The notes under the pieces: generated by a model
What the model saw: only the letters and a program-made list of their open reading frames with translations
What the model was told of the DNA's origin: nothing
Databases searched by the model: none
Part shown: one piece after another, positions 3,587 to 50,386 of the stretch
How positions within the stretch are numbered: the first letter of the stretch is position 1
Layout: every line of letters begins with the position of its first letter
Assembly (NCBI GenBank): GCA_951406725.2
Contig: OX597814.1
Location: 47,802,001-47,866,000, forward strand
Length of the DNA stretch: 64,000 nucleotides
Direction: 5' to 3'
Source: Octopus vulgaris
Lineage: Eukaryota
Translations under genes and position numbers: made by a program

Positions 3587-4344
3587 AATTCAGAGCGGCC
3601 AGGGACGTGAATTCGGATAATGAAGACTAATGAAGGCATACTCAATATCGATATATCGATACCTATATCTATCTATATGTAGGTATATGTGTATAAATAT
3701 ATATATGCATGTATGCATTATGCATAATATGCATCTATGTATACATGTACATGATGTACGTATGTAAGTATGTATGCATATATTTATGTAAATATATATA
3801 TTTATATGTGTGTATATATATATGTATATATATATATAAGTATAATTATTATCTATTTATCTATATATATATATGTATGTATGTATGTATGTATATCTAT
3901 CTACCTATTTATCTATACATACATAAATACATACGTATATGTGTGTGTGCGTGTGTGTACACACACAGACATATACATACATTTAAGATGAAGAGACTAC
4001 ACTGGGAAAACAATGGTTATGTTATGAACTTGATTAGCTTACATCTATTCCTGCTATAAGATGCAGTGAACTCGTAGTTGAATGCCTGAATAACATCCTG
4101 TAACTTCATCAGAGCCTCGAATACGAAGTTCAATTTATTTGTGGAAAAAAGAAATAATTACATTTGTGCAATATATAGAGATGGCATTACCAGTGAGAAA
4201 ATCATTACTGGTGCATATAAAAAATGTATGTCCAACAAGCCAATTAGATTTACTAGTAGAAACAGTAGAAAAAATATCAGAAAAAGAATGTATGTATAAA
4301 TATATACACGTGCACCAGATTATTAGTCTCGCGATGCCTAATCG

Positions 4345-10308: not shown

Positions 10309-13300
10309 TATTTCTTTATTACCCATAAGGGTTTACATAGATGGGGACATTCAATGATTTGGGGTCATGTGGATGAAATGGAGCTATTTACAGGGACATC
10401 GAATGGATTATTTACAATGAAAATGAAAATGAAATTGAACAAGAACAAACAAACAAAAAGGGACATATGAAGTCAAAAGAACAGGATAGCCGACCCCACG
10501 AGCCCTGTTATTTTAACTGAAACTTTTTGGTAAGGGATCACGGCGTGTTCATGCAAGGCCTTTCACACCTAGCATCCGTGCAACACGCATCCATCTTTTT
10601 TTGAATACAGACTCTGACAGACACATTTTCTCTAGCCCCACCTTCCTTTTCAGATGGAACTTGAAAAAGTTCGTTAGGGCGGTGCCAGAGATCATGGTGT
10701 CTGACATTATACCTTTCACTCTAGTCTTCCATATAACCCCTTTCGCAACTGCTACTATCACGAGAAAGCAATGCTTACCTTCGTTCGTCATGAAACCAGG
10801 CGGGTCAATTTTTAAGATTTACTCAGACGACAGCTGTACTCTTCTTCCGTCCGACAACAGGTGTTCGGCATAAACCCACACGTCCGAAATATCCGGACTG
10901 AACAATAGCGTGCAGGACTGTTTCCACATCCCGCCCGCATCTTGGACAGACCGATGGTCCACTGTGACCATACCTTGTGAGTTTATCTCGAACGGGTAAG
11001 GCTCCTCTGTAACATTGCCAGGCCAAGGACTTCTGAAAATTATCCAGTGTCCCTGGTCCGAATGTCCTTTAGAACAGGCTGTCTAACTGATTACCATCGA
11101 GACCCAGGGTCCTTCCCAGGGTATCGTCATTTCCGGCCTCTACCAACCTGCTATAGAACGCTGCGGTGGTACCAAAGCCGCCGGCATTGCCCGTGCTGCG
11201 GAAGTGTAAGAGAGCCTTACGGCACTCCCAATACCACATACTCAATCTTAGTCTGCGACGAAACCAGGTTTCTCTACCACCAAAACTGGCAAAACTGGGG
11301 AACATCTGTTTTGCGAGTGGGGACCACACCCGTTCACCTTCTAGGTATTGCCAAAGATGCCTCAACATCAGCGCATGTCTGCGCATCAACAGCCAAGGCA
11401 TCCCTAACCCACCCTTTAACGGCTTTTGACAACAGATAGAACGTCTCATAAGAGGAGTGGAACCCTTCCACAAAAAGCGAAAGATTTGCCTCTCCATCTT
11501 GCTCAATCACGAATCCGGACAAGGGACGACGGTTAGGCGGTATATGATGACCGATGCCATGAACACATTGGCCACCTCCGCCCTCCCTTTCAAGGATAGC
11601 CACCGCCAAGACCAAGTCTTGACCACGTGAGCCACCTTGCTCGCGACCTCAGACCAGTTCTTTTCTATCTGGAGACCTGGACCAAACCAGATCCCTAGCA
11701 ATTTAACCGGGGCCTCCGTCCAGCATCCCACGATGCTATTCGAAGCGAAGGCATCGACTTGCCAACCCAGGTGCCGAGTTGCAAGCCGACTGACTTTTCC
11801 CGGTTGGTTTTTGCTCCTGACACCGTCTCGTACTCCTTGATGGTGTCTCCTACATTCTGTAGGATGATGGTGGTGTCGTCCGCATACGCTGTAACAGATC
11901 CTCCTCCTCCTGGATTTGTCGGGATGACGCTCAGCTTTCGCAGTAATGGCTCGAGAGCCATCACATATAAAAGCGGAGAGAGCGGACACCCTTGACGAAC
12001 TGACCGTTTGATGCGGAACGACCTAGAAAGTAGACCGTTCACCCGAACGATCGAGTCGATGTTGTACAACTGTATAATCCACCTGAGGAAACCAGTACCC
12101 AGCCCGAACTGTGCGAGTACAGACACCAAGTAACGATGGTTCACCCTATCGAAAGCTTTACTCTGGTCTAAATGGACCAGTGCCCCACCCTTGCCAGAGT
12201 TATTCCCAAACCCTTCTACGGTGTAACGTATAAGGTGAAGATTATCCTGAATAGTTCTTCTGGGGACTGCAAAAGTTTGTGCCTCCTCGATCAGACCATC
12301 TGCGACACGCGTCAACCTTTTCGCTAACACCTTGGCCAAAATCTTCACCTCCGCGTTCAGCAGGGTGATAGGCCTAAAGTTATCTATTCTGTTTCCCTTG
12401 TCGAGGTCCTTCCTGATCAGTGTCACCACTCCCCGGCGTACAGACCTGGGAATCCTCCCATTCTGATACCAGTTTGCGAAAACGCTGGCCAGTATTGGCC
12501 CGAACAAGTCTGGCATACTTTTATATAGTTCGTAGGGTAAACCATCGAGTCCCGGCGCCTTACCTCTGCCACAGTCGGCTATGGCCTCAGTCACCTCCTC
12601 AGGCGTGATTGACCCTTCACAGCTCTCCGCATCCCGCCCCGAGAGGCGCGGCAGCCCGGCGAGGAAGCCCGTAAGGTCCACCCTCTCATCCGGTCCACCT
12701 TCACCCCCGAAAAGCTGGGCGAAGTGCTCCTGAAAAAGTCCGACACATCTCCTCGGGTTCGTTTACCACATCGCCCTTTTCGTTCGTCACAGACTTAATT
12801 GTGGAATCGTTTCCGTGTTGAGCCTCCACAACTCGTGCCCATCCGGCGGCCTTAATTCCCTCGCACCCCATTGCGCGAACTCTAGCTCTGACGATACAAC
12901 CCATATGCTTGGTTTCGAGGTGCTGGTTTAATTCCTGTCTCTTCACCTTCACCTGGGTCCCGTCGCCAGATCTTATGGCTTCTTCTAAAGCCTTAACTAG
13001 CCCCTCTTCTTTCTTACGCCTTTTATTTGCTAGTCCCATACTATATCTAATGGACTCGTATTTTATGGCTCTCTTGAGCGCTAACCACCATTTGTTGTTA
13101 AGAATGGAACCGGTTAACGCCCTCTGAATTTGTAACCTAATCCGGCTTCTGTACTCCTCAATCGCCAAAAGGGACTTATTGAGTTTCCAGTAACCGGATC
13201 CTTTTCTACATAACTTATCTAGGTACAGCTTACCAGTGACCATCTTGTGGTCACTGTAACTGACCAAGTGAAACTGTGGACACTTAACTATGCCTTTATC

Positions 13301-14056
13301 TAGTTCTCTAATAAAAATCATGTCTATGTAAGATTTGGAAGACCCGTCGCTATTTGACCACGTCCACAGTGGAGCGTCCGGGAATTCCAGTCTGTAAGGA
13401 TCTACTAGCTGAAAGCGACTCAGTAGATCTCGTAAGCCACTGTTAGGTTTCCTATCATCTTTGGAGCCAACACTATCGACACGCGCATTGACAATAGTGT
13501 TAAAGTCCCCTAGCATCACTATGGATTTTGACGTCCCTAGAAATTTCTCCAGGTCCCGAAAGTAATCAGTCTGATGTGATTGGGGTGCGTACACCGCCAC
13601 CAGCCTGATCTCCTTACCACAACTGAAAGTCAGACCTAAGACGACCAGCCCTACCCTCTGGGTCAACAAAAATTAACTTTTTCTCTGAAACTCTATTCCT
13701 TTTAAGTAGGACCAACACCCCACTTCCGCCACCCACCTGCCGACATGGAGAAATAAATTTCTCGTAGCCATCCAGGAGCGGGAGTAGATCTCTTGGCCCT
13801 TTCAACCGAGTTTCAGTAGCTACAACAACATCTAAATCGTTTCAGTAGCTACAACAACATCTAAATCGAACTGTTTCCAGTTCGTCATCAGGCCACGCAC
13901 ATTTAAACACCCTACTTGAACAGCCATAAATCACTTACTTTGTTTCTTCTGAGTCCGGGGGGCGAGGGAGAACCGCCTCCTCTTCGTCTGGGGCCCGTGG
14001 AGTCGGCTGGATCAGGCCCTCGTACAGACGGTTCGAAACCTCCATCCGCAGAAGGC
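10309..14056 (-). mobile_element. Tx1/L1-clade non-LTR retrotransposon, 5'-truncated within ORF1, decayed
   Basis: APE, RT and CCHC domains in order; 3' UTR ends AATAAAGAAATA; TSD GGACTACAACCATATTA at 10292-10308 and 14071-14087. Confidence 0.95.
10549..13927 (-). pseudogene. LINE ORF2 (AP-endonuclease, reverse transcriptase, zinc finger), broken by frameshifts and stops
   Basis: Start MAVQVGCLNVRGL (ATG at 13927). APE motifs AVYAP, MLGDFN, SYID, SDH, WKLN (12701-13669). RT motifs KAPGLDG, FRPITLLN, DQSKAFD, QGCPLSP, YADD (11695-12681). GGLGMP. CPRC...ETVLHA (10823-11026). Confidence 0.95.
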
Positions 14057-21091: not shown

Positions 21092-21690
21092 GATGGTCAG
21101 CTGAAAAGATCATTGGCTGATCAAGAATGGAATGTAGCAAATGAGGTTTATTTTTCAACATAATCCCCCTTACGGTCCACACACGTTTTCCATCGGTGTT
21201 GCAGTGCCTGAATTCCATTGGTGAAGACGCTTTCAGCGGCAGATATGACATCATCTCTGTGACACTGGTTCCCAGTCAAGAGTTTTTTTCATATTGATGA
21301 ATAGTCAGATGGGGCCCAAATTGGGAGAATAGGGAGGTTGTCCGTTGAAACCAAGGACTTATGTGCTGGAGCATTGTTCTGATGAAACAAGACCCATTTC
21401 ATTAGTTTTCCTGGTTGTTTGGTCTGGATTACCTTTCGTAGCTGCCTCAGCAAGTTGACATGGTACTCTCCATTGATGGTGTGACTCTTTTGAAGATAGT
21501 CATAAACACAATGCATCCAAAAAACTGAGGCCAGATGAAACGACTTTGGCCTTATTTGGAGCAGGCGAGGTGTTTTCATTGCATGGATTGTCTCTTTGTC
21601 TCTGGCTCAAAATGATAAAGCCAACACTCATCCAGGATTAGGAAATATTCAAGGAAACCAGCAGGGTCTACCTAAAACAATGTCAGATTC
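21092..21690 (-). mobile_element. Mariner transposase remnant (catalytic DD34D region)
   Basis: ASVFW...DYLQKSHTINGEYHVNLLRQLR...KWVLFHQNNAPAHKS...APSDY; TIR-like GCTGAAAAG near 21100. Confidence 0.85.
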
Positions 21691-22668: not shown

Positions 22669-22698
<30 letters not shown>

Positions 22699-22702
<4 letters not shown>

Positions 22703-22807
22703 CACATTGAAAACACCGGTTCTCGTCCGTTCACAGAAGTTAAGCAACGTCAAGCCTAGTTAATACTTAGATGGATGACCACTTGTGAAACCTAGGTGCT
22801 GTAAGCA
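22699..22807 (+). pseudogene. 5S rRNA-derived sequence missing about 10 nt at the 5' end
   Basis: ATATCACATTGAAAACACCGGTTCTCGTCCGTTCACAGAAGTTAAGCAACGTCAAGCCTAGTTAATACTTAGATGGATGACC...CCTAGGTGCTGTAAGCA aligns with molluscan 5S rRNA, including the internal control region, with several substitutions. Confidence 0.92.
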
Positions 22808-40509: not shown

Positions 40510-41790
40510 ATGGAGACAAAGAGTTACGCTGCAGTAACGTGAAGACAAGGAGATATGGATCCAAGTTTGCTGGAGCAATATGAAGTGGATTTCAAGGCAG
40601 AATTCGTTAAGAAGTACCAAGATAGGTTACAGAGGGAGGGGTCTAACATAAAGTTGAGCCCCCCCCCCCCCCAAGAAGAAATGAAGGAAATGGAAAACAG
40701 AGATAGTATACAGAACGTTCTCGAGAAGCAAGAGAAGAATAGATATAGCAACACAGGAAGAGGTGAAAAAGTGCCTAGAGGATATTAAGGATGTTATTAC
40801 CTTTTATACAAGAGGTAGAAAGTACGGCACGGTGGTCGTCACTTTCGTCTCCAAAGAGGAGGCAAAGGAGTACTCCGCCGTGACATTACATTCGGACGAG
40901 TGGACTCTCCTGTCTACACACCTGGGCAAGCGCGTTGCCAGGGTTAGGATATGCTGGATTCCGCCTGAGATTGAGCTCGAGTAGCAGATGGCAGGGGTCC
41001 TTGATGTGGGAGACGAAGGGGGAGATGAGAGCATTAGCATCCTCCAGGTAACCCGGACCCAACAAATAAATTGGTTGGAGATGTTTTTGCGGGCCAACCA
41101 AACAGAATATGCTGGAATACCGGAGACAATAGAGCTACTCAATGGGGTAAAATTGGAAGTAATATTGGAAGGAATGCTCCCTACTTACTATTCTTTCGGA
41201 AAGAAAGGTGTCCCAAACAAGTGAAGGAGCTTGCAGAGATGGAAGCACAGGAATGTGGAGTGGAAATGGAGCAAAAGACCTGAGACGCGGAACAGGATAC
41301 AAATTTTAGAGGTAAAAACAAGAGAGATAGAGGAGGAACACACTGCCAAAAGAGGAACTACAGCAAAAGAAACATAAGACACAGGAAGAAACAGACCCAT
41401 TAAGACAAGCAACAACAAACAGAAGCAACGCGCCCATAAGTTCACCAAAAAGGAAAAACATCACAAGCAGAGTGGAATCACAAAGCAGACACACAGACAC
41501 ACAGACACACAAAAACAGACATACAGACACACAGACACAAAAACACACAGACACACAAGATGCACAACAGGGTGAAAACATATAGAAACAAAATATATTT
41601 AGTAACATATTGCACAAATCAAAAAATCGAAAGAAAAATAACGAAAATGAAAAATATTACAAGAGTAAAATTAACAGAGGATTACGACAAGGACATGAAA
41701 TGTATTTTGGTAAATGAAGAAAGGTATAGAACACTAAAAGAAGCATTTCTATTGAATGTGAATCCACTGGGGCCAGAGATGAGAAATTAA
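40510..41790 (+). mobile_element. Decayed Tx1-type ORF1 (RRM-like region plus eroded zinc knuckle)
   Basis: METKSYAAV start; YGTVVVTFVSKEEA...ARVRICWIPPEI; VILEGMLPTYYSFGKKG resembles an eroded CxxCxxxGH; low-complexity K/E/T-rich C-terminus. Confidence 0.7.
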
Positions 41791-41963: not shown

Positions 41964-42860
41964 CCCAGAGTTAAGTTGCTAGCAGTCTGGTTTGGGCCAC
42001 ATCTCCAGGTAGAAAATACCTGGGCTGATGTATCGAGTAAGGTGACCCCCATAGTCAAGACCTGGTCTTGGCGGTAGCTATCCTTGAAAGGATGTGTTTA
42101 TCGCATCGGTCATCATTTACCGCCTAACCGTCGTTCCTTGCCCAGATTCGTGGTTGAGCAAGTTGGAGAGACAGATCTTTCGCCTCTTGTGGAAGGGCTC
42201 GACTCCACTTGTGAGGCGTTCTATTTACTGTAAAAAACCATTAAAGGGTGGACTAGGTGGACTTGGTTGTTGATGTGCAAACATGCGCTGAGATTGAGGC
42301 ACCTCTGGATCGTCCTGGATAGTTTTAGGGTGCGGACTTCGCTTGCGAAACGGATGTTTCCTAGGTTCACTAGTTTTGGTGGACGGGAAAACTGGTTCTG
42401 TCGAAGATCGAGGTTGGGTATCTGGTTTATAGAGTGCCGTAAGGCCCTCCCACTGTTCCGTCGCTCAGGCAATGCTAACAGTTTTGGTACAACCGCATCT
42501 CTTTATAGCAAGTTGGTAGAGTCTAGATGTGACGATACCTTAGGGGGGACCCTGGGCCTCGATACTGATCAGCTAGACAGTCTGTTCCAACGGACATTCG
42601 GGCAGAAGAAACTGGATAACTTCCAAAAGTCTCTGGCCTGGCAATATTACCGAGGAGCCTTACCCGTTCAGGATAAGCCCACAAGACACAGCCAACCCGG
42701 CCCATCGACCTGTCCAAGATGCGAGCAGGTGAGGGAAACCGTCCTGTACGCTATTGTTCAGTGTCCGGAAGTGTCAGAATTGTGGTCTTATGCAGAACAC
42801 CTGTTGTCGGATACAAGAAAATTACAGCTGTCGTCTGAGTCAATTCTAAAAATTAACCCA
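41964..42860 (+). mobile_element. Tx1-type ORF2 3' fragment, same family as 10309-14056
   Basis: HALRLRHLW...WFIECRKAL...DNFQKSLAWQYYRGALPV...CPRC..VRETVLYAIVQC is closely similar to 10800-11712. Confidence 0.93.
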
Positions 42861-42989: not shown

Positions 42990-43044
<55 letters not shown>

Positions 43045-43176
43045 AAAATAGTAAAGTGTGAAAAAACGACAGAAGGCTTAAATGTTAAAAAATATATATA
43101 TTTGTGTCAAAATGTCTGGAGAATATTGGAAAAATTTTTTTCCCTTCCTTAAAATGACATAATTTTAAAATTTTTA

Positions 43177-43216
43177 AAGAAATTACCGGTTTCGCGTGTA
43201 GCTTTTCAAATTTCTT
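43177..43216 (-). ncRNA. Minimal type-I hammerhead motif (mirror of 43943-43982)
   Basis: Exact reverse complement of 43943-43982. Confidence 0.8.
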
Positions 43217-43942
43217 GTGACGTTATGTTTATATTGCATGGAGTTATCGTTGTTTTTATTTCCAGGAGATTTCTAAATAAGGGGAGGTAGTGAGTGATTT
43301 CTTCCGGTGTAGGGGAGATAATCGCTTAAAAATTTTTTTTCCCTTTTCCTTGTTAATTTCTCTGTGTCAGTATGTTCGGATTGTTGAGTCTTTTTTCCCT
43401 TTTCCTTGTTAATTTCTCTGTGTCAGTATCTTCGGATGGTTGAGTCTGGGTTTGTACTTTTCAATGAAGAATGTTTCCTTGTTCAGTCTCATTTGTGTTG
43501 TTGATCCGAAAGCACATTGGTAAAATGGGAAGATTAAAAACAGATTGCATTCCCAGAATATAGAATGATACCTTTTAGTGAGCACATTGAGAAATGCGCA
43601 AAGCAACTACTGCCACAATTTTTAATCTTCCCATTTTACCAATGTGCTTTCGGATCAACAACACAAATGAGACTGAACAAGGAAACATTCTTCATTGAAA
43701 AGTACAAACCCAGACTCAACCATCCGAACATACTGACACAGAGAAATTAACAAGGAAAAGGGAAAAAAGACTCAACCATCCGAACATACTGACACAGAGA
43801 AATTAACAAGGAAAAGGGAAAAAAATTTTTTAAGCGATTATCTCCCCTACACCGGAAGAAATCACTCACTACCTCCCCTTATTTAGAAATCTCCTGGAAA
43901 TAAAAACAACGATAACTCCATGCAATATAAACATAACGTCAC

Positions 43943-43982
43943 AAGAAATTTGAAAAGCTACACGCGAAACCGGTAATTTCTT
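43943..43982 (+). ncRNA. Minimal type-I hammerhead ribozyme motif, U3-A8 variant
   Basis: AAGAAAT-TTGAAAA-GC-TACAC-GC-GAAA-CCGG-TA-ATTTCTT: 7-bp stem I, core, 2-bp stem II, GAAA, palindromic CCGG, UA cleavage site. Confidence 0.8.
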
Positions 43983-44156
43983 TAAAAATTTTAAAATTAT
44001 GTCATTTTAAGGAAGGGAAAAAAATTTTTCCAATATTCTCCAGACATTTTGACACAAATATATATATTTTTTAACATTTAAGCCTTCTGTCGTTTTTTCA
44101 CACTTTACTATTTTCTTATATATTCACCCACGTGCTTTACCAAACAAACTTTCTTA

Positions 44157-44199
<43 letters not shown>

Positions 44200-44771
44200 T
44201 CGAACACACACACAAATACGTGTGTGTGCGTGTGTATGCACTTGGTACCTCACCGGTTATCTTACCACCGGGACATTGAGTAAGTCCTTTATAGCCTGAA
44301 AAGCCTTCTCTAACTACCTTGAAATGTTTCCCCTCCAATCTCTTTCACCTTCAGTTCTTCAAAATTAAAATTTGCTTTATCACAAACGATAGCATTACTC
44401 AATGAATTTCTTTGTTGTTTGTTTGCAAGTCTACCACCTGCAATGATAATACCTTCCATTTGATTCACTTATTTAATACCAGAATAACTCAGTTGCGTAA
44501 CACAGTCTGATAGTTTGCTGCATTGAATATTTAGCATCGTCGTACAATCAAGGCAGTTTATTCTGACTGGCTGGAATTGCACCGGTAAGATATGAGCGAT
44601 TTGGACATATTGCAAATAGCACCATTATTGCCAATCAGCGCAATCAAACCGGTGTAAAACCAGGAAAGACTGTGAGAGTGTGTGTATATACACATTAATT
44701 TTTTTTTAACAAGTATTGTATCGACAGTGACCCCGAAGTTTCGGCTGGCTAAACCATCGTTGGATAGTCTG

Positions 44772-45074
44772 TGGAGGCACATAGCCTAGTGGTTTGAGCA
44801 GCGGACTCGCGGTCGAGAGATCGCGGGTTCGAATCTCAGACCGGGCGATGTGTATGTTCATGACCAAAACATCTAAAGTCCACGCGCTCCGGCAGAAGGT
44901 AATGGCGAACTTCTGTTGACTCTTTCGCCACAACGTTCTCTCACTCTTTCCTCCTGCATCATGCAGCTTACTTGCGACAGACCGGCGTCCCGTCCAGGTG
45001 GGTAACCTATACGCCAAGGAAACCGGGAAACCGGCCCTTATGAACCAGGCGTGGCTCGAGAAGGAACAAACATC
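44772..45074 (+). mobile_element. tRNA-derived SINE (family-A head, different 3' half) with 10-bp TSD
   Basis: TAGCCTAGTGG / GGTTCGAATCT boxes; TSD GGATAGTCTG at 44762-44771 and 45075-45084. Confidence 0.9.
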
Positions 45075-49879: not shown

Positions 49880-50386
49880 TGAGTTGAGCGGTGACGAGCA
49901 AGCAAACCAGAGGCTCGTTGATTTTTGTTGTTGTCACTTAAATGCTCCATACTTCTGAACTTTACCCATCGAGTGAACATGCTTCTCTAAGGAAGTGTGG
50001 GAGCATTCCATTTTATCTGCCAGTTCCCTTGTCATTTGACGAGAATTTTCGTGCAAAAGTTGGTTTAATCGCTCTTCATCGAACTCAACTGGACGGCCAG
50101 AACGAGATGCGTCTTTGAGGTCAAAATATCCATTTTTGAACTTAGCATACCAATCACGAGCTGTTCTTTCAGCTATGGCACCCTCTCCATACACAGCACA
50201 AATGTCGTGAGCAGCTTTTGCGGCCTTAGAACCTTGATTAAAAGTAAAAAGAAGAAGGTGTCGAAAATGCTCGTTTTCCTTAACGTGACATTCCATTTTA
50301 ATGATCTGAATATAAACAAAAATTAACTAGAAAAAAAAAAAATTCCAAAATTTAAAAAAACCGCGGGAACTTAGTTGCCAACCCAA
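49880..50386 (-). mobile_element. Mariner 5' fragment (TIR plus HTH DNA-binding domain)
   Basis: TIR TTGGGTTGGCAACTAAGTT next to TA; ORF 49934-50296 MECHVKENEHFRHLLLF...ICAVYGEGAIAERTARDWYAKFK...SRSGRP. Confidence 0.92.

What the first reader, a model, noticed from the sequence alone, without database searches (positions are those of the whole stretch)
43041..44118. Near-perfect 1.08-kb palindrome: Penelope GIY-YIG end with mirrored U3-A8 hammerheads
Seen: 500-bp arms, two mismatches noticed, a 78-bp spacer coding for part of a GIY-YIG C-terminus, and a hammerhead with core UUGAAAA and loop CCGG in each arm. Known: 5'-truncated Penelope-like elements often carry an inverted pseudo-LTR, and long near-perfect palindromes are unstable. 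Inference: a very recent insertion. Transcription from either side would give a 500-bp dsRNA hairpin, a strong ADAR or Dicer substrate (coleoid cephalopods edit RNA heavily), that would also sequester the ribozyme.
Basis: partly seen in the sequence, partly recalled or inferred. Interest (0 to 1): 0.75.

Follow-up and report, generated by a model that had tools for sequence, protein, structure and literature searches.

The report
Mirror-image Penelope insertion with one tail
This 1.1-kb palindrome is an ordinary footprint of a young jumping gene, two truncated copies joined head to head, but nearly every such insertion in the genome has a short tail on exactly one end, which likely means both copies were made from one RNA in a single event.

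Summary
Observation confirmed: 500-bp arms, three mismatches (not two), 78-bp spacer, GIY-YIG C-terminus, and a U3-A8 minimal hammerhead motif in each arm. It is a 5'-truncated head-to-head insertion of a Neptune/Nematis-type Penelope-like element (unit ~3,994 bp, hundreds of near-identical ends). This layout is the family's usual form (56 of 108 end clusters on three contigs), so it is neither rare nor likely an assembly fold-back. Layout, tail and U3-A8 core are all in print. What is added is quantitative: 89 of 90 two-armed insertions have one tailed and one untailed end; arms share a haplotype; either arm can be longer (27:24); near-equal arms are in excess. Best reading (inferred): both target strands prime reverse transcription at two adjacent sites of one RNA, and the cDNAs join by microhomology. 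The ADAR/Dicer idea has no support here: no transcription shown, no A-to-G excess in copies. The parent also has an ORF1 and a conserved -1 slippery site. The scan found similar palindromes in other families of this genome before.

The parts
42992..43040 (.). Left (TA)n target microsatellite
   Evidence: sequence
43041..43540 (-). Inverted arm: 500-nt 5'-truncated 3' end of the element, untailed end at 43041
43177..43216 (-). Mirror copy of the minimal type I hammerhead motif (U3-A8 core)
43335..43447 (-). Mirror copy of the 56-bp tandem duplication
43539..43540 (.). Head-to-head junction, 2-nt microhomology shared by both arms
43541..43618 (+). 78-nt spacer: the part by which the tailed arm is longer; codes for part of the GIY-YIG C-terminal half
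43541..43750 (+). Remnant of ORF2: last 69 codons of the RT-ZnF-GIY-YIG frame plus stop
43619..44118 (+). Direct arm (ORF end + pseudo-LTR), tailed end
43712..43824 (+). 56-bp tandem duplication (two copies here; three in the closest relatives)
43943..43982 (+). Minimal type I hammerhead motif: helix I 7 bp, core UUGAAAA (U3-A8), helix II 2 bp, palindromic helix III; predicted cut after 43975
   Evidence: cleavage untested
44119..44158 (+).
44159..44197 (.). Right (TA)n target microsatellite
   Evidence: sequence

Best explanation
This is one insertion of an endonuclease-positive Penelope-like retrotransposon into a (TA)n repeat, two 5'-truncated copies of its 3' end joined head to head, likely made by twin priming: each cut target strand would prime reverse transcription on the same RNA, one at the end of the tail and one 40 nt upstream at the end of the pseudo-LTR. 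Shown: identity of the element, one-sided tail, (TA)n flanks, 2-nt junction microhomology, shared haplotype of the arms, and the one-tail rule across the family. Inferred: nicking of both strands; use of each start site once (helped by the UAUAU that ends both sites and can pair with the TA primer); one RNA rather than two; joining of the two cDNA ends by microhomology, with part of the second arm possibly copied from the first cDNA by fold-back. The palindrome is a by-product with no function shown. The hammerheads are passengers of the pseudo-LTR and are predicted not to cut here, because a transcript would carry only one sense copy, paired with its antisense twin.
For: One-tail rule: 51 of 51 two-end head-to-head clusters and 5 of 5 three-end clusters on C1-C3 have one tailed and one untailed outer end (exact patterns; 0.5^51 = 4e-16 if ends were independent). 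Over all two-armed loci inspected, 89 of 90; one is tail-tail, none untailed-untailed. One template: arms differ by 0.68% within and 1.96% between insertions. At family-polymorphic sites arms agree on the minor allele 111 times and disagree 16 times, 10 of these at one error-rich locus, against 19% agreement between loci. In 3 informative tandem-plus-inverted loci the inverted arm matches the outer, not the inner pseudo-LTR (L075 dropped as a duplicate). Either arm can be longer: tailed 27, untailed 24 of 51. Near-equal arms (35 nt or less apart) in 8 of 51 against 2.1 expected, p about 0.0006, as if both copies ran off one RNA end. One inverted arm consists of tail sequence only (L088). Microhomology of 2 nt or more at 9 of 14 measurable junctions (22 tried) against 15% by chance. 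In vitro, a related element cuts and extends both strands and starts at two adjacent sites that bound the tail; a dimer is predicted (PMC11167929, parts 1-2 of 4 read).
Against: No intermediate was observed; everything is read from finished insertions. PMC11167929 saw no difference in start site between the two strands, and no homology between target and start site, unlike this family. Near-equal arms and shared haplotypes are equally predicted by fold-back. Gene conversion or assembly polishing can homogenise or alter arms: L072 and L075 are the same insertion with the same flank, yet their inverted arms differ. Single-armed insertions exist with and without tail (11 of 17 fetched singletons stayed unpaired). 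One tail-tail case exists (L084). The junction of this copy could not be confirmed in independent reads.
Confidence: 0.58

Rival explanations
1. Self-priming or fold-back: one strand (first cDNA, or an antisense RNA as proposed by Arkhipova et al. 2013) folds back and is copied into a hairpin, and the endonuclease then trims the tail from one end when it resolves the intermediate.
For: Explains the shared haplotype, junction microhomology and the excess of near-symmetric palindromes. Proposed in PMC3846280 (Discussion read). PMC8557442 ascribes the tail to endonuclease-mediated resolution (passage).
Against: The simple form (tailed first strand folds back) needs the tailed arm to be the longer one; the untailed arm is longer in 24 of 51. 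A fold-back from an untailed first strand cannot gain a tail without a second priming on RNA. Most loops are large (median 497 nt). The in vitro data show target priming on sense RNA.
Confidence: 0.24
2. Two RNAs from the same source locus are copied by an asymmetric protein dimer, one subunit fixed to each start site.
For: Gives the one-tail rule and either arm longer. A few loci have discordant arms (L036, L048, L049).
Against: Several haplotypes were active, yet arms nearly always match. Arm lengths are correlated (Spearman 0.37, p 0.008), with an excess of equal arms.
Confidence: 0.12
3. Assembly artefact (fold-back chimeric read).
For: No independent contig was seen to bridge the junction with 31 nt on each side; the lists were cut and the test was inconclusive. 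The assembly holds at least one error-rich duplicate locus.
Against: The flanks are not mirrored and the tail is on one side only. The arms differ at 3 sites. The same tail asymmetry holds at 56 of 56 clusters on C1-C3, which a fold-back read cannot produce. The layout is described from other animals.
Confidence: 0.03
4. A functional or selected dsRNA source (ADAR/Dicer substrate, or ribozyme switch) at this locus.
For: Predicted hairpin of 516 pairs, -859 kcal/mol. Penelope copies yield small RNAs in rotifers (PMC3846280 Discussion). Database names point to an octopus, where heavy editing is recalled knowledge.
Against: No transcription shown. The 40 frames scanned gave only transposon domains. 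Dozens of equivalent palindromes occur per chromosome. Locus-private A>G changes in copies run at 4.7 per 10,000 against 5.9 for T>C, so templates that retrotransposed carry no editing footprint.
Confidence: 0.03

Closest known systems
Inverted 5'-truncated insertions of EN+ Penelope-like elements with one-sided tail (Craig et al. 2021, PMC8557442, Fig. 2 legend and passages; Arkhipova et al. 2013, PMC3846280, passages and Discussion)
   Same: Inverted 5'-truncated copy at the 5' end, 30-40-bp tail often at one end only, (TA)n targeting, partial tandems forming pseudo-LTRs, hammerhead in the pseudo-LTR.
   Different: The passages read call the tail optional or often one-sided and give no counts. 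Here it is one-sided in 89 of 90 two-armed insertions, with same-template arms and no bias in which arm is longer.
Neptune/Nematis clades of EN+ Penelope-like elements
   Same: [quoted passage not shown]
   Different: Clade not placed on a tree. The parent has a separate 451-aa ORF1 with no Pfam hit and enters the RT frame at a conserved -1 slippery site. The Fig. 1 legend of PMC8557442 says an ORF1 can be separated by a frameshift in some PLE types, but the figure could not be seen, so this is probably known.
Minimal hammerheads of metazoan PLEs, U3-A8 variant (Cervera and de la Pena 2014, PMC4209133, parts 1-2 of 4 read)
   Same: Type I topology, U3-A8 core (about 1,300 hits in Schistosoma), G10.1-C11.1 pair, small palindromic helix III that needs a dimer.
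   Different: Helix II is only 2 bp here (7-8 bp in Schistosoma). Some sister copies have U3 with G8. Cleavage is untested.
Poseidon element PAc in vitro (Frangieh et al. 2024, PMC11167929)
   Same: Two adjacent reverse-transcription start sites bounding the tail; AT-rich target; both strands cut and extended.
   Different: Other clade and single ORF. Its hammerhead overlaps the start codon, whereas here it lies ~143 nt before the pseudo-LTR end. Its start sites lack target homology, whereas both sites here end in UAUAU.
LINE-1 twin priming (recalled, no call)
   Same: Both target strands prime on one RNA and give an inversion joined by microhomology.
   Different: In LINE-1 the second priming is far upstream, so the inversion has no duplicated 3' end. 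Here the two sites are 40 nt apart, so the same stretch is copied twice.

Membership tests
EN+ Penelope-like element | RT with C-terminal GIY-YIG endonuclease | tested here: met
   Parent frame of 811 aa: RVT_1 E 2.9e-7, GIY-YIG E 0.069. 3 of 3 relatives scanned pass the GIY-YIG cut-off. Window peptide 67/68 identical to its end.
EN+ Penelope-like element | CCHH motif, two Cys between GIY and YIG | tested here: met
   Both cysteines and the downstream histidines are seen in alignment A1; the window fragment keeps the last histidine.
EN+ Penelope-like element | Pseudo-LTRs from partial tandems, direct or inverted | tested here: met
   25 pseudo-LTR/ORF1 junctions in the genome; period ~3,994 bp.
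EN+ Penelope-like element | 30-40-bp tail at one end | tested here: met
   44119-44158 on the right end only.
EN+ Penelope-like element | Target-site duplication | tested here: inconclusive
   Both flanks are (TA)n, so no duplication can be told apart.
Neptune/Nematis clade | CX2-5CxxC finger between RT and EN | tested here: met
   C-X4-C-X2-C in the parent, conserved in the 22 aligned relatives.
Neptune/Nematis clade | (TA)n insertion preference | tested here: met
   Ends listed run into (TA)n or a TA-rich repeat with few exceptions; 310 exact untailed ends are followed directly by (TA)n.
Neptune/Nematis clade | Placement on the RT tree (Neptune versus Nematis) | not tested
   No labelled reference sequences were at hand.
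Minimal type I hammerhead of PLEs | Core boxes with a 3-8 pair, GAAA, UH | tested here: met
   101 of 113 matched arms carry the window's motif unchanged. 2,064 genomic matches, 0 in the reversed control; of 100 listed, 98 have U3 (89 with A8, 9 with G8), none C3.
Minimal type I hammerhead of PLEs | Helices I and II kept while their sequence changes | tested here: met
   A sister family has the same core and CCGG with different helix I and a 4-bp helix II; two families only, no formal covariation count.
Minimal type I hammerhead of PLEs | Match to an Rfam hammerhead model | tested here: not met
   No hammerhead row among 150 of 162 shown; not unexpected for so reduced a motif.
Minimal type I hammerhead of PLEs | Self-cleavage (as a dimer or with protein) | not testable with these tools
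   Needs an in vitro assay.
Non-LTR retrozyme | Non-coding tandem monomers, each with a hammerhead | tested here: not met
   The copy is the truncated end of a coding element and is not a tandem array.

The most novel reading that the evidence does not exclude
The head-to-head palindrome is the normal product of Penelope-type integration: one protein complex nicks both strands of (TA)n and starts two reverse transcriptases 40 nt apart on one RNA, each site used once. This single rule would explain the inverted pseudo-LTR and the one-sided tail together, and would replace the antisense self-priming model. I found no statement of it in the searches.
Probability: 0.5. Interest if true: 0.65.

Novelty: new member of a known kind. 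Interest (0 to 1): 0.4.

Why it matters
The locus itself is common transposon debris. Its value is as one of hundreds of young copies in a chromosome-scale assembly that let the Penelope integration mechanism, still called undefined in PMC8557442, be tested by counting. The one-tail rule, same-template arms and unbiased arm length give sharp predictions for an in vitro system that already exists for a related element. Practical point: such palindromes should not be discarded as fold-back artefacts; the one-sided tail tells them apart.

Tried and rejected
Rfam scan: no hammerhead hit shown. Pfam on the 68-aa peptide alone: no hit; solved with a profile of relatives. Sequencing runs: no RNA holder listed, which says nothing on expression. 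Two read-laying runs on contig runs neither bridged nor refuted the junction (lists cut, repeats break contigs), and the empty site could not be tested because (TA)n breaks contigs. An apparent bias towards longer untailed arms (26:14) came from loci chosen for length and vanished in the unbiased set (24:27). L075 first looked like a two-template insertion; it is an error-rich duplicate of L072 with the same flank and was dropped from counts. A circular monomer template is not favoured: inner and outer pseudo-LTRs differ at shared polymorphic sites in L064, L070, L072, L078, L081, and 5' ends do not pile up at the predicted hammerhead cut. A-to-G footprint in copies: none. The monomer energy evaluation was invalid (2-nt loop) and is not used. 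No clear stimulatory structure was found after the slippery site (about -9 kcal/mol, pseudoknots not modelled). Arkhipova 2017 (Terminons) is not held. Figures and supplements of the papers were not seen and may bear on the ORF1/frameshift and tail claims. No complex or structure prediction was run.

Full report
Observation. The palindrome is real in the sequence: arms 43041-43540 and 43619-44118, a 78-nt spacer, and three mismatches rather than two. The + strand frame from 43541 is 67/68 identical to the end of an 811-aa frame in a longer copy. That frame has RVT_1 and a weak GIY-YIG hit, and 3 of 3 of its database relatives scanned pass the GIY-YIG cut-off. A profile of 22 relatives, without this family's protein, finds the window peptide at E 1.5e-19 and the spacer alone at 3e-5. 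Each arm has the hammerhead-like motif and a 56-bp duplication. The arms meet at a 2-nt microhomology.

The parent element. A search of the own genome gave 1,660 candidates, of which 40 were scored. Exact end patterns count 383 tailed and 310 untailed ends. The unit is about 3,994 bp. ORF2 carries RT, a C-X4-C-X2-C finger and a GIY-YIG domain with two cysteines between GIY and YIG. These are the marks that PMC8557442 (Introduction and passages read) gives for Neptune and Nematis; I built no tree. Upstream lies a 451-aa ORF1 with no Pfam hit and 4 database relatives; two of these are named Octopus proteins, which is my basis for calling the host an octopus. ORF2 is entered in the -1 frame at a U UUU UUA site present in 36 of 36 copies matched. 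ORF1 is open up to it in 20 of 24 full copies, and both frames are open in 7 of 24. In sister families (ORF1 about 40%, ORF2 52-60% identical) the same heptamer sits in frame 66 nt before the conserved ORF2 start motif in 4 of the 7 loci where that motif was found, of 14 fetched; by my count the distance is also 66 nt in this family. Programmed frameshifting is inferred, not shown.

The palindrome is the family's usual form. On C1-C3, where both pattern lists are complete, 97 tailed and 76 untailed ends fall into 108 clusters; 56 contain a head-to-head pair. Of 17 of the 48 single ends fetched, 6 proved to have a mutated partner end. The layout and the one-sided tail are described in PMC8557442 (Fig. 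2 legend) and PMC3846280 (passages and Discussion read). An assembly fold-back is unlikely: flanks are not mirrored and the tail is one-sided. Independent short-read contigs were inconclusive. Age: the arms differ by 0.6%; the median of 35 comparable insertions is 0.4%. So the copy is young but not among the youngest.

A strict rule. All 51 two-end clusters and all 5 three-end clusters on C1-C3 have one tailed and one untailed outer end; the patterns would have shown tail-tail or untailed-untailed pairs equally well. Adding 6 rescued singletons, L070 and L072, 14 loci on other contigs and 12 full-length loci gives 89 of 90, with one tail-tail case (L084); L075 was dropped as a duplicate of L072. 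Arms come from one source: 0.68% divergence within against 1.96% between insertions; 111 shared against 16 discordant minor alleles, against 19% agreement between loci. The window's arms share the four substitutions and the two-copy repeat that separate them from their closest relatives. In the unbiased set the tailed arm is longer in 27 and the untailed in 24. Near-equal arms are in excess: 8 of 51 within 35 nt against 2.1 expected. Junctions show microhomology of 2 nt or more in 9 of 14 measurable cases (22 tried; chance 15%); by BLAST overlap 25 of 51 overlap by 2 nt or more and 9 of 51 have inserted bases.

Mechanism. PMC11167929 (parts 1-2 of 4 read) showed that a Poseidon protein cuts and extends both strands and starts at two adjacent sites that bound the tail. 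Combined with the counts, the simplest reading is twin priming. Each target strand starts one cDNA on the same RNA, one at the tail end and one at the pseudo-LTR end; both sites end in UAUAU, which can pair with a TA primer. The two cDNA ends are then joined by microhomology. This is inference (0.58). Against it: that paper saw no strand difference in start site; fold-back also predicts shared haplotypes and equal arms; gene conversion or polishing can alter arms; single-armed and one tail-tail insertion exist. Pure fold-back from a tailed first strand is contradicted by the 24 longer untailed arms. The antisense self-priming model of PMC3846280, with endonuclease trimming, remains the main rival (0.24).

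Hammerhead. The motif is unchanged in 101 of 113 matched arms. A looser pattern has 2,064 genomic matches and none in the reversed control; 98 of 100 listed have U3, 89 with A8 and 9 with G8. A sister family keeps core and CCGG with different helices I and II. The U3-A8 variant and the need for a dimer are described in PMC4209133 (parts 1-2 of 4 read). Rfam shows no hit. A transcript across this locus would hold one sense motif paired with its antisense copy (hairpin -859 kcal/mol), so it is predicted not to cut. In the Poseidon assay, ribozyme mutants did not affect insertion.

ADAR/Dicer. Nothing here shows transcription. Of 62 longer frames in the window, 40 were scanned and gave only transposon domains; short exons would be missed. 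Locus-private A>G changes in the fetched copies are not in excess over T>C (4.7 against 5.9 per 10,000). The idea stays possible but unsupported.

Novelty. Layout, tail and ribozyme variant are known, so this is a new member of a known kind. Searches for the twin-priming reading and for a frameshifted ORF1 in Neptune found no explicit statement. However, the library lacks several key papers, figures and supplements were not seen, and the Fig. 1 legend of PMC8557442 already mentions a frameshifted ORF1 in some PLE types. Other papers were seen only as search listings, apart from part 1 of 5 of bioRxiv 2026.07.22.740005 and passages of PMC5408684. Earlier notes of this scan describe similar palindromes in other families of this genome, one with a strict end rule; I had reached the rule before that look-up, and those notes are not independent support. 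Interest 0.40.

Noticed in passing
L077:3885-5240 and downstream (parent element; also L082, L084, L085, L090): The parent has a 451-aa ORF1 without Pfam hit and a U UUU UUA site at which the RT frame opens in -1; the site is kept at the same distance in sister families, suggesting programmed frameshifting in an endonuclease-positive Penelope-like element.
   Followed up: partly
L072 (C2) and L075 (C1): The same insertion with the same junction and right flank occurs on two contigs; L075 is rich in small indels and its inverted arm has a different, older haplotype (duplication or haplotig, with gene conversion or polishing error).
   Followed up: partly
L084; L088:5159-5187: L084 is the only tail-tail insertion seen; in L088 the inverted arm is only 29 nt of tail.
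   Followed up: partly
L126, L162 junctions; L182:522-660: Short locally templated insertions at the centres of near-symmetric palindromes; in L182 both arms start at the same position with 140 nt of foreign sequence between them.
   Followed up: no
L065, L066, L067, L069, L080: Inner pseudo-LTRs of five full-length copies begin within element positions 3896-3913, about 85-100 nt before the pseudo-LTR end; possibly a transcription start.
   Followed up: no
L052, L061: Internal inversions without a second 3' end, resembling LINE-1-type twin-priming products.
   Followed up: no
L074; genome-wide pattern: An older subfamily carries U3 with G8 in the hammerhead core; no C3 among 100 listed matches.
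   Followed up: partly
window 10517-13672 (-) and 42234-42860 (+): Decayed APE-RT LINE, and a 75% similar 3' fragment with a zf-RVT domain just left of the palindrome, in opposite orientation 31 kb apart.
   Followed up: partly
window 22689-22807 (+): 5S rRNA-like sequence (69 bits) directly after a TA repeat; likely a pseudogene or 5S-derived SINE.
   Followed up: no
window 44738-45070: Very high-copy repeat (summed contig depth above that of the Penelope arms), SINE-like, right of the insertion.
   Followed up: no
window 21292-21606, 49937-50326, 41440-41787: Fragments of mariner-type transposases and a weak DDE_Tnp_1_7 hit.
   Followed up: no
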